Source: a virus | Taxonomy: Duplodnaviria > Heunggongvirae > Uroviricota > Caudoviricetes | Direction: 5' to 3' (one strand) | DNA length: 5,343 nucleotides | IMG/VR virus record: IMGVR_UViG_3300023543_000090 | In this document: positions 1,798 to 1,857 of the stretch, one piece after another | Numbering within the stretch: the stretch's first letter is position 1 | Layout of the letters: each line of letters opens with the position of its first letter | Notes under the pieces: model-generated | Told to the model about the DNA's origin: nothing | Seen by the model: the letters and a program-made list of their open reading frames with translations, nothing else | The model's database searches: none | Translations under genes and position numbers: made by a program

Positions 1798-1815
1798 TGG
1801 AACATGTTTTATGTG

Positions 1816-1843
1816 AAACCGCCTGCGGGCGGTTTTGTCGTTT
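1816..1843 (+). other. Stem-loop with a trailing T-rich tract in the I-J intergenic region (terminator-like or mRNA structural element)
   Basis: AAACCGCC (1816..1823) pairs with GGCGGTTT (1828..1835) around a TGCG loop (5 G:C plus 3 A:T pairs), followed by TTTTGTCGTTT. It lies inside the 60-nt gap between the I stop and the J start, ending just upstream of the J SD. Confidence 0.3.
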
Positions 1844-1845
1844 AT

Positions 1846-1849
1846 GGAG
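1846..1849 (+). promoter_or_regulatory. Shine-Dalgarno for J
   Basis: GGAG with an 8-nt spacer to ATG 1858. Confidence 0.5.
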
Positions 1850-1857
1850 CATGAGGA

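What the first reader, a model, noticed from the sequence alone, without database searches (positions are those of the whole stretch)
1798..1857. Terminator-like hairpin inside the late operon between I and J
An 8-bp stem (5 G:C pairs) with a 4-nt loop, followed by TTTTGTCGTTT, occupies the 60-nt gap directly before the J SD. In lambdoid late operons transcription is Q-antiterminated, so such a structure would be read through during lytic growth. It could block spurious transcription into J in lysogens, set J stoichiometry relative to L-K-I, or act as an mRNA processing or stability element.
Basis: partly seen in the sequence, partly recalled or inferred. Interest (0 to 1): 0.4.

Follow-up and report, generated by a model that had tools for sequence, protein, structure and literature searches.

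The report
Conserved terminator hairpin before tail gene J
The 60-base gap between tail genes I and J holds a real, strongly conserved terminator-type RNA hairpin. It is the same element found in phage lambda itself and is already labelled "terminator" in related phage records, so it is genuine but ordinary.

Summary
The stem is AAACCGCC (1816-1823) paired with GGCGGTTT (1828-1835). The loop is TGCG, a UNCG-type tetraloop, and a T-rich tail runs to 1843. The J ribosome-binding site GGAG (1846-1849) and the J start codon (1858) follow.

The hairpin is far beyond chance. The 60-nt fold has z = -4.2. None of 3000 shuffles, and none of 253 coding windows, reach its terminator score.

It is the same element as lambda 15445-15504. 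GenBank records of phage 21 and Ayreon annotate it as a terminator. The region occurs in about 79% of complete E. coli genomes.

The stem is under purifying selection. One of 16 stem positions varies, against 50 of 79 flanking third-codon positions. The loop varies freely, and stem changes are wobble-compatible.

Unrelated hairpin sequences followed by T runs occupy the same I|J gap in HK022-like, Stx-like, T1-like, Acinetobacter and some ES18-like phages. One of these shows a compensatory pair change.

Best reading: it is an intrinsic terminator inside the Q-antiterminated late operon. Q-modified polymerase reads through it during lytic growth, and it stops unmodified polymerase. Its physiological role has not been tested. 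A predicted lower stem that covers the J ribosome-binding site has no comparative support. Novelty is low.

The parts
1795..1797 (+). Stop codon (TGA) of tail assembly gene I; upstream boundary of the gap
   Evidence: ORF 1126..1797. Homologous to lambda I, 14773-15444.
1816..1823 (+). 5' arm of the hairpin (AAACCGCC; G:C core CCGCC at 1819-1823)
   Evidence: Sequence. Predicted unpaired probability is 0.02 or less. Invariant across 29 variants except one C-to-T change that gives a U.G pair.
1824..1827 (+). Tetraloop TGCG (UNCG type, closed by C-G)
   Evidence: Sequence. The loop varies among relatives (TGCG, TCCG, TCAG; ATTAC in Gifsy-2) while the stem does not.
1828..1835 (+). 3' arm of the hairpin (GGCGGTTT)
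   Evidence: 100% paired in 29 variants. Taking both arms together, 1 of 16 stem positions varies, against 50 of 79 flanking third-codon positions (p = 3.5e-5).
1833..1843 (+). T-rich tract TTTTGTCGTTT (U-tract of the terminator; its first three T also pair with the A run)
   Evidence: Tail score 3.81; combined score 18.6, second highest on the + strand of the window. The proximal TTTT is invariant in 29 variants.
1846..1849 (+). Shine-Dalgarno GGAG of J, 8 nt before the start codon
   Evidence: Sequence. The same four bases are annotated as the ribosome-binding site in the phage 21 record.
1858..5256 (+). Gene J (tail tip / host-specificity protein, 1132 aa), the gene downstream of the hairpin
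   Evidence: ORF. 88.6% identical overall to lambda J; the last ~130 residues are diverged.
1803..1813 (+). 5' side of a predicted lower helix that pairs with 1843-1853 and covers the J ribosome-binding site. Predicted only; not supported by comparison.
   Evidence: Present in the minimum-energy structure. 87.5% of cells pair, no better than shuffles, and there is no real covariation. Absent in the Citrobacter relative.
1843..1853 (+). 3' side of the same predicted lower helix (contains GGAG)
   Evidence: Predicted unpaired probability of the ribosome-binding site is about 0.03. No comparative support.
5275..5292 (+). Second terminator-type hairpin (GGCGTCAGAAATGACGCC + TTTTTTATT) in the J|lom-like gap; same class of element, given for context
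   Evidence: score 30.8. The lambda J|lom gap has an analogous hairpin at 18920-18935.

Best explanation
The element is a Rho-independent (intrinsic) transcription terminator that sits inside the late operon, in the only sizeable non-coding gap of the tail-tip module.

Mechanism. When the RNA is made, CCGCC-UGCG-GGCGG snaps into a very stable UNCG-capped hairpin directly ahead of a U-rich stretch. Ordinary RNA polymerase would release the transcript there. Polymerase modified by the late antiterminator Q at the late promoter is resistant and carries on into J. The hairpin therefore lets J, and the genes after it, be transcribed only as part of the genuine Q-dependent late transcript. It blocks transcription that starts spuriously inside the head and tail genes or reads in from elsewhere, as in a lysogen or before Q is made. 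In read-through mRNA the hairpin still forms and may also act as a barrier to 3'-to-5' decay.

Shown here: the structure, its non-random nature, purifying selection on the RNA pairing and on the T tract, and recurrence of the same architecture with unrelated sequences at the same gene junction.

Inferred: actual termination, read-through under Q, and the physiological benefit.
For: - Stability and non-randomness. -24 kcal/mol for the gap, z = -4.16. The 8-bp core is -13.1 kcal/mol. 0 of 3000 shuffles and 0 of 253 coding windows reach the hairpin-plus-T-tail score.
- Position. It is one of only two positive-scoring sites on the + strand of the window. Both lie in the two intergenic gaps of about 60 nt, I|J and J|lom-like.
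- Comparison with lambda. The same element scores 18.6 in lambda. Hairpins that I recognise from my own knowledge as tR2, t-oop, t-imm and tL3 score 25.0, 29.6, 19.0 and 8.3. In the lambda late region every positive site but one lies in an intergenic gap: D|E, E|FI, I|J, J|lom, lom|stf. No site is found on the minus strand at I|J, so the element is directional.
- Public annotation. The homologous hairpin is annotated 'terminator' in the phage 21 and Ayreon records, and the analogous one in mEpX1.
- Selection. 1 of 16 stem positions varies against 50 of 79 neighbouring third-codon positions (p = 3.5e-5). 2 of 4 loop positions vary. The helix is 100% paired in 29 variants and its only changes give G.U or U.A pairs.
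- Analogues. In the HK022-type hairpin GCCACC/GGTGGC, across 49 variants, all 20 loop and flank positions vary. Only 3 of 12 stem positions vary, all wobble-preserving, and the T run stays at 6-8. The Stx-type hairpin has a compensatory U-A/C-G pair and keeps its T tract although it lies 42-52 nt from J.
- Lineage survey. Among 16 sampled lineages plus this window, 8 of the 9 sequences with a gap over 50 nt carry a terminator-type hairpin, with several unrelated stem sequences. The 8 lineages with gaps of 16 nt or less carry none.
- Literature. The late genes are expressed from PR' in a 27-kb mRNA running through J (PMC10695390), so such a terminator would have to be read through in lytic growth.
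Against: - No experimental 3'-end, in vitro termination or mutant data for this element were found.
- The U-tract is interrupted (UUUUGUCGUUU), so termination may be only partial.
- The scoring formula was recalled from memory and used with modern energy parameters, so only relative ranks are meaningful. It missed tR' and tI, which have imperfect stems.
- Within the lambda-type family there is no true compensatory change, only invariance and wobble changes.
- ES18-like, Mannheimia, Vibrio, Pseudomonas, Serratia, Rhizobium, Moraxella and Synechococcus phages have almost no I|J gap and no hairpin. The element is therefore dispensable for this gene arrangement.
- Conservation of the T tract could partly reflect its position just upstream of the J ribosome-binding site.
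Confidence: 0.6

Rival explanations
1. The hairpin works mainly after transcription, as an mRNA stability or processing element. In the read-through late mRNA it blocks 3'-to-5' exonucleases. After a cut upstream it could instead protect the 5' end of the J message. Either way, the lifetime of the upstream tail-gene segment is uncoupled from that of the long J segment.
For: The hairpin is very stable and predicted to be fully formed in the mRNA. Similar hairpins flank the abundantly expressed D and E genes in lambda. That is where stabilisers would be useful, and strong termination would be harmful without Q. The AU-rich single-stranded stretch 1804-1815 upstream could be an endonuclease target (inference).
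Against: A decay barrier needs no T tract. Yet the T run is retained in every lineage, including the Stx-type, where it lies 42-52 nt from J. No processing data were found. This role does not exclude termination, and both could hold.
Confidence: 0.2
2. The hairpin is the top of a longer structure. Its lower helix (1803-1813 with 1843-1853) hides the J ribosome-binding site. J would then be translated poorly, or only when ribosomes finishing gene I melt the lower helix (translational coupling). This would set the low J dosage.
For: The minimum-energy structure includes the 11-bp lower helix, and the predicted unpaired probability of the ribosome-binding site is about 0.03. Lambda folds the same way. 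The 5' side starts 6 nt after the I stop codon, so a terminating ribosome could plausibly reach part of it (inference).
Against: 87.5% of cells pair in 29 variants, no better than column shuffles (351 of 500 shuffles reach the observed value). The outermost pair is unpaired in 25 of 29 variants. The helix contains 5 G.U pairs. It is absent in the Citrobacter relative, which keeps the hairpin. The HK022-type upstream flanks are unrelated to one another, so they cannot conserve such pairing.
Confidence: 0.08
3. The inverted repeat acts at the DNA level. It could be a protein-binding palindrome, or a conserved linker that promotes homologous exchange of J (host-range) modules between phages.
For: The repeat is a perfect 8+8 palindrome. 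The hairpin plus TTTTGTCGTTT is retained in Citrobacter and Gifsy-2 relatives whose upstream flanks are unrelated. Among relatives, the last 200 nt of I are about 85% identical to this window, while the start of J is about 96% identical. This suggests mosaicism near here.
Against: The only stem changes seen give G.U pairs, which preserve RNA pairing but break the DNA palindrome. Other lineages have different stem sequences with the same hairpin-plus-T-run design at the same junction. That fits a structural RNA signal, not a specific DNA site. The element is directional, with no terminator score on the minus strand.
Confidence: 0.04

Closest known systems
The I-J intergenic hairpin of phage lambda itself (lambda 15445-15504), annotated as 'terminator' in phage 21 (OL657228.1, 15649-15673) and phage Ayreon (MF807953.1, 14895-14934)
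   Same: Same position, same 60-nt gap, identical stem and T tract, same ribosome-binding site. The window differs from lambda at 4 of the 60 gap positions, none of them in the stem or the loop. Phage 21 and Ayreon have loop TCCG where the window and lambda have TGCG.
   Different: Nothing of substance. The lambda reference records (NC_001416, J02459) do not annotate it. The terminator labels in the other two records carry no experimental note, so I take them to be software predictions.
Intra-operon terminators of lambdoid late operons, as discussed for phage L / P22 (PMC8022706). In lambda these are the hairpins in the D|E, E|FI, J|lom and lom|stf gaps.
   Same: Terminator-type hairpins inside an operon that has a single Q-dependent promoter, placed in the few intergenic gaps.
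   Different: Different sequences and positions. Their roles are stated to be unknown.
Classical lambda intrinsic terminators tR2 and t-oop
   Same: G:C-rich stem, short loop and a following T run. The score here (18.6) is within their range of 25.0 and 29.6. The identity of those two hairpins rests on my own knowledge of lambda.
   Different: tR2 and t-oop have uninterrupted runs of 5-6 T and are experimentally proven. The tract here is interrupted after four T, and the element is untested.
I|J-junction terminators of HK022/HK97-like (mEpX1), Stx-like and T1-like phages
   Same: Same gene junction and same hairpin-plus-T-run design. In HK022-like phages it also lies directly before the J ribosome-binding site.
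   Different: Unrelated stem sequences (GCCACC, CAGGCACCC, CCCGC). T1-like phages follow the terminator with a TATAAT-containing stretch, so there the junction may be a true transcription-unit boundary.

Membership tests
Rho-independent (intrinsic) terminator | Stable G:C-rich stem-loop with a short loop | tested here: met
   8 bp (5 G:C) with a UGCG tetraloop, -13.1 kcal/mol; predicted fully paired in mRNA context.
Rho-independent (intrinsic) terminator | U-rich tract immediately 3' of the stem | tested here: met
   TTTTGTCGTTT: four contiguous T, then 4 more T among the next 7 bases. Tail score 3.81. By the same score, hairpins I recognise as known lambda terminators give 3.34 (tL3) to 4.85 (t-oop). 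The tract is interrupted, so this is a weaker-than-ideal example.
Rho-independent (intrinsic) terminator | Same strand as, and downstream of, a transcribed gene; directional | tested here: met
   The hairpin starts 18 nt after the I stop codon, on the coding strand. No terminator score on the opposite strand in lambda.
Rho-independent (intrinsic) terminator | Pairing maintained in evolution (an RNA-level constraint) | tested here: met
   100% paired in 29 variants, with wobble-only changes. The stem varies far less than synonymous sites. A compensatory pair is seen in the Stx-type analogue. There is no true compensatory change within the lambda-type family itself.
Rho-independent (intrinsic) terminator | Transcript release or 3' ends at the U-tract in vitro or in vivo | not testable with these tools
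   No 3'-end or in vitro data found in the papers searched. A Term-seq data set exists for E. coli O157 Sakai, but the data cannot be read here.
Terminator internal to a Q-antiterminated late operon | Lies between a Q-dependent late promoter and essential late genes that are expressed in lytic growth | tested here: inconclusive
   The window holds no Q gene or late promoter. The homologous site in lambda lies inside the PR' transcript that runs through J. No promoter-like site lies before J in the window.
Curated RNA families (Rfam 15) | Match to a described RNA family | tested here: not met
   Only chance-level matches (E of 1 or more, far below gathering scores) across 1600-2000.
RNase III processing site (long, roughly 20-bp duplex) | About two turns of conserved double helix | tested here: not met
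   The 21-bp extended structure exists only as a prediction. Its lower 11 bp have no comparative support.

The most novel reading that the evidence does not exclude
The junction in front of J may be a recurrent regulatory checkpoint in lambda-like tail modules, acquired independently several times. Unrelated terminator hairpins have been fixed at exactly this junction in several phage lineages, and gained or lost in others. In the lambda type, the hairpin would also form the top of a structure that hides the J ribosome-binding site. Expression of the large host-range protein would then be gated twice: by antitermination at the transcript level, and by translation of gene I at the ribosome level.
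Probability: 0.1. Interest if true: 0.45.

Novelty: already known. Interest (0 to 1): 0.2.

Why it matters
The element shows that even in the best-studied phage the late operon carries selected terminator-type hairpins whose purpose has never been tested. This one is present in roughly four of five complete E. coli genomes, and it is as constrained as protein-coding positions.

If it insulates J from unscheduled transcription, it belongs to the mechanism that keeps prophage structural genes silent. If it tunes dosage or mRNA stability, it matters for engineering lambda-type tails and for host-range swaps, which usually cut at exactly this junction.

As a discovery it is minor. The structure is already annotated in relatives, and the candidate roles are already in the literature.

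Tried and rejected
- The built-in promoter/terminator scan did not list the site. I infer that its stem extension swallows the T tract. I replaced it with my own hairpin-plus-tail scan.
- Rfam gave nothing.
- I checked whether the hairpin could be one of the new lambda small RNAs (PreS/LPR1, LPR2, 6S). It is not. LPR2 and 6S lie close together in the late operon, with 6S ending at the late terminator, and PreS is in the early left operon.
- The extended lower helix that covers the ribosome-binding site was tested for covariation and found unsupported.
- A 16-codon mini-ORF (1804-1854) in frame with J was considered and dropped, because its ATG is replaced by ACG, ACA or ATA in many relatives.
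- The genome-contig scan mostly returned lambda-identical contigs in unrelated taxa and gave only a few useful divergent loci.
- Two key papers could not be read under the PMC ids I recalled: Casjens & Hendrix 2015 and the lambda ribosome-profiling paper.
- Literature searches for mapped 3' ends in the lambda late operon found nothing relevant.
- The idea that the gap is itself the mosaic breakpoint was examined. Identity does drop in the last 200 nt of I, but not sharply at the gap.

Full report
**What is in the window.** The window is a lambda-type tail-tip module. It holds the end of L (to 480), then K, then I (1126-1797), then J (1858-5256). After J comes the start of a lom-like gene. The finding concerns the 60-nt gap 1798-1857.

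**The observation.** AAACCGCC (1816-1823) pairs with GGCGGTTT (1828-1835) around the loop TGCG. The tail T-GTCGTTT follows, running to 1843. GGAG lies at 1846-1849 and the J ATG at 1858.

The 8-bp hairpin is worth -13.1 kcal/mol. The whole gap folds at -24 kcal/mol, z = -4.16. The built-in scan did not list the site. I infer that its greedy stem extension uses up the T tract.

I therefore wrote my own scan. It considers perfect stems with loops of 3-8 nt and ViennaRNA energies. It adds a decaying T-tail score, combined by a discriminant recalled from d'Aubenton-Carafa's method, so only ranks are meaningful. The I|J hairpin scores 18.6, second on the + strand of the window after the hairpin behind J (30.8). 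Everything else is below -35. None of 3000 dinucleotide shuffles of the gap reach 18.6 and only 3 exceed zero. None of 253 coding windows exceed zero. The structure is not a chance feature.

**Identity.** The same gap with the same hairpin is in lambda at 15445-15504. The phage 21 record annotates TGAAACCGCCTCCGGGCGGTTTTAT as a terminator and GGAG as the ribosome-binding site. The Ayreon record annotates a terminator over the same hairpin. The region is in 4292 of 5426 complete E. coli genomes, often in several copies. Rfam has no family for it.

**Context in lambda.** The same scan was run on the + strand of the lambda late region. Positive scores fall at lom|stf (40.4), D|E (22.2), I|J (18.6), just after the B stop (12.9), E|FI (9.7) and J|lom (9.0). 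All other sites in that region score below -16. Nearly every sizeable gap of the late operon therefore holds such a hairpin.

Some hairpins elsewhere in lambda I recognise, from my own knowledge, as proven terminators. They score 25.0 (tR2), 29.6 (t-oop), 19.0 (t-imm) and 8.3 (tL3). The I|J element is within that range. Nothing scores on the opposite strand at I|J, so the element is directional. The scan misses terminators with imperfect stems, such as tR' and tI, which limits it.

**Selection in the lambda type.** Among about 100 related loci there are 33 versions of the gap. In 29 gapless versions the 10-bp upper helix is 100% paired. Eight pairs never vary and two vary on one side only (C-G to U-G; U-G to U-A).

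In 66 distinct 303-nt segments, 1 of 16 core stem positions varies. By comparison, 50 of 79 third-codon positions in the flanking I and J sequence vary (p = 3.5e-5). So do 19 of 158 first and second positions and 2 of 4 loop positions. The stem is thus as constrained as amino-acid-determining positions.

Gifsy-2 and a Citrobacter prophage keep the stem and the TTTTGT tail, although their upstream flanks are unrelated.

**Analogues elsewhere.** I collected loci around J homologues of three other types and single records of more distant phages.

- HK022/mEpX1-type. 77 of 80 loci have GCCACC-NNNN-GGTGGC followed by 6-8 T, directly before J. Across 49 variants all 20 loop and upstream-flank positions vary. 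Only 3 of 12 stem positions vary, each giving a G.U pair. The mEpX1 record annotates it as a rho-independent terminator.
- Stx-type. CAGGCACCC-TCCG-GGGTGCCTG followed by TTGTTTT lies 42-52 nt before J. One pair alternates U-A (5 variants) and C-G (4 variants), with one mismatch. Only 6 of 500 shuffles reach the observed pairing.
- ES18-type. Most loci have a 9-nt gap and no hairpin. Six of 80 have a 43-45-nt gap carrying GCCATC/GATGGC or GGTCAGC/GCTGGCC plus a T run.
- T1-like phages (ISF002, Klebsiella K50) and an Acinetobacter phage also have strong terminator hairpins in this gap. In the T1-like phages a TATAAT-containing stretch follows.

Altogether, 8 of the 9 sampled sequences with a gap over 50 nt have a terminator-type hairpin. 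The 8 lineages with gaps of 16 nt or less have none. The T tract is retained even where it is far from the J ribosome-binding site. This argues for termination rather than a purely translational role for the T run.

**The lower helix.** The minimum-energy fold extends the hairpin with 1803-1813 paired to 1843-1853. That hides GGAG, giving a predicted unpaired probability of about 0.03. Across 29 variants 87.5% of cells pair, no better than shuffled columns, and the end pair is usually unpaired. The helix is absent in the Citrobacter relative. The HK022-type flanks are too varied to conserve such pairing. I treat it as an unsupported prediction.

**Mechanism.** The best-supported reading is an intrinsic terminator inside the late operon. 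The literature states that the late genes are expressed from PR' in a 27-kb mRNA that includes J. It follows that the site must be read through during lytic growth. That is the known behaviour of Q-modified polymerase (established knowledge, not shown here).

What the element is for remains open. [quoted passage not shown] It suggests partial termination or stopping transcription that lacks antitermination. I favour insulation against unmodified polymerase, with a possible second role as a decay barrier. I found no experimental data on this site.

**Verdict.** The hairpin is real, selected and terminator-like. It is the same element as in lambda and is already labelled as a terminator in related records. 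The finding is correct but ordinary. The only open point of some interest is why this particular junction repeatedly carries a terminator.

Noticed in passing
window 5274-5293 and 5323-5343: A second, stronger terminator-type hairpin (GGGCGTCAGAAATGACGCCT + TTTTTATT) lies just after J. A ribosome-binding site and the start of a lom-like gene (MRKLYAA) follow. Lambda has an analogous hairpin in its J|lom gap.
   Followed up: partly
window 1804-1854: A 16-codon ORF (MFYVKPPAGGFVVYGA*) runs through the hairpin. It is in frame with J and ends 3 nt before the J start. Its ATG is ACG, ACA or ATA in many relatives. In some relatives the stop is TTA, which would join it to J. It is probably not a gene.
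   Followed up: partly
window 4860-5256 (J residues ~1000-1132): J is 97-100% identical to lambda J over residues 1-700 and about 88% over 700-1000. The last ~130 residues are essentially unrelated, which suggests a different receptor specificity.
   Followed up: partly
window 1598-1797 (last 200 nt of gene I): Among close relatives, the 3' end of I is only about 80-91% identical to this window. The gap and the first 400 nt of J are about 88-100% identical. This indicates a mosaic or fast-evolving C-terminal part of I.
   Followed up: partly
loci L009, L010, L012-L014, L016-L019, L021-L025, L035, L037 and others: Low-coverage contigs 98-99% identical to lambda J appear in assemblies of unrelated organisms (Shewanella, Pseudomonas, Neobacillus, Kitasatospora, Bradyrhizobium, Desulfosporosinus and more). 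This looks like lambda DNA contamination of those assemblies. A 'Campylobacter phage CJLB-4' record also carries this lambda-type region.
   Followed up: no
L144 791-867 and L388 790-867 (T1-like phages): In T1-like phages the gap between the I-like and J-like genes holds a strong terminator. A conserved stretch follows (CGCCTGTATAATGAG in ISF002, CGTCCGTATAATGAC in K50). This suggests a terminator-plus-promoter unit boundary at the same junction.
   Followed up: no
L309, L315, L347, L350, L355 versus the other ES18-type loci (L305-L384): There is a presence/absence polymorphism. Most ES18-type phages have a 9-nt I|J gap, but a few have a 43-45-nt gap that carries a terminator hairpin. The element is therefore gained or lost within one J lineage.
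   Followed up: partly
L385/L386 (lambda) 6101-6114, 7164-7179, 4487-4502: Terminator-type hairpins also sit in the lambda D|E and E|FI gaps and just after the B stop inside C. Almost every positive-scoring site in the late region coincides with a gene boundary.
   Followed up: partly
window 2647-4335, minus strand: A 562-codon open frame runs antisense inside J. There is no evidence that it is a gene, and I did not examine it further.
   Followed up: no
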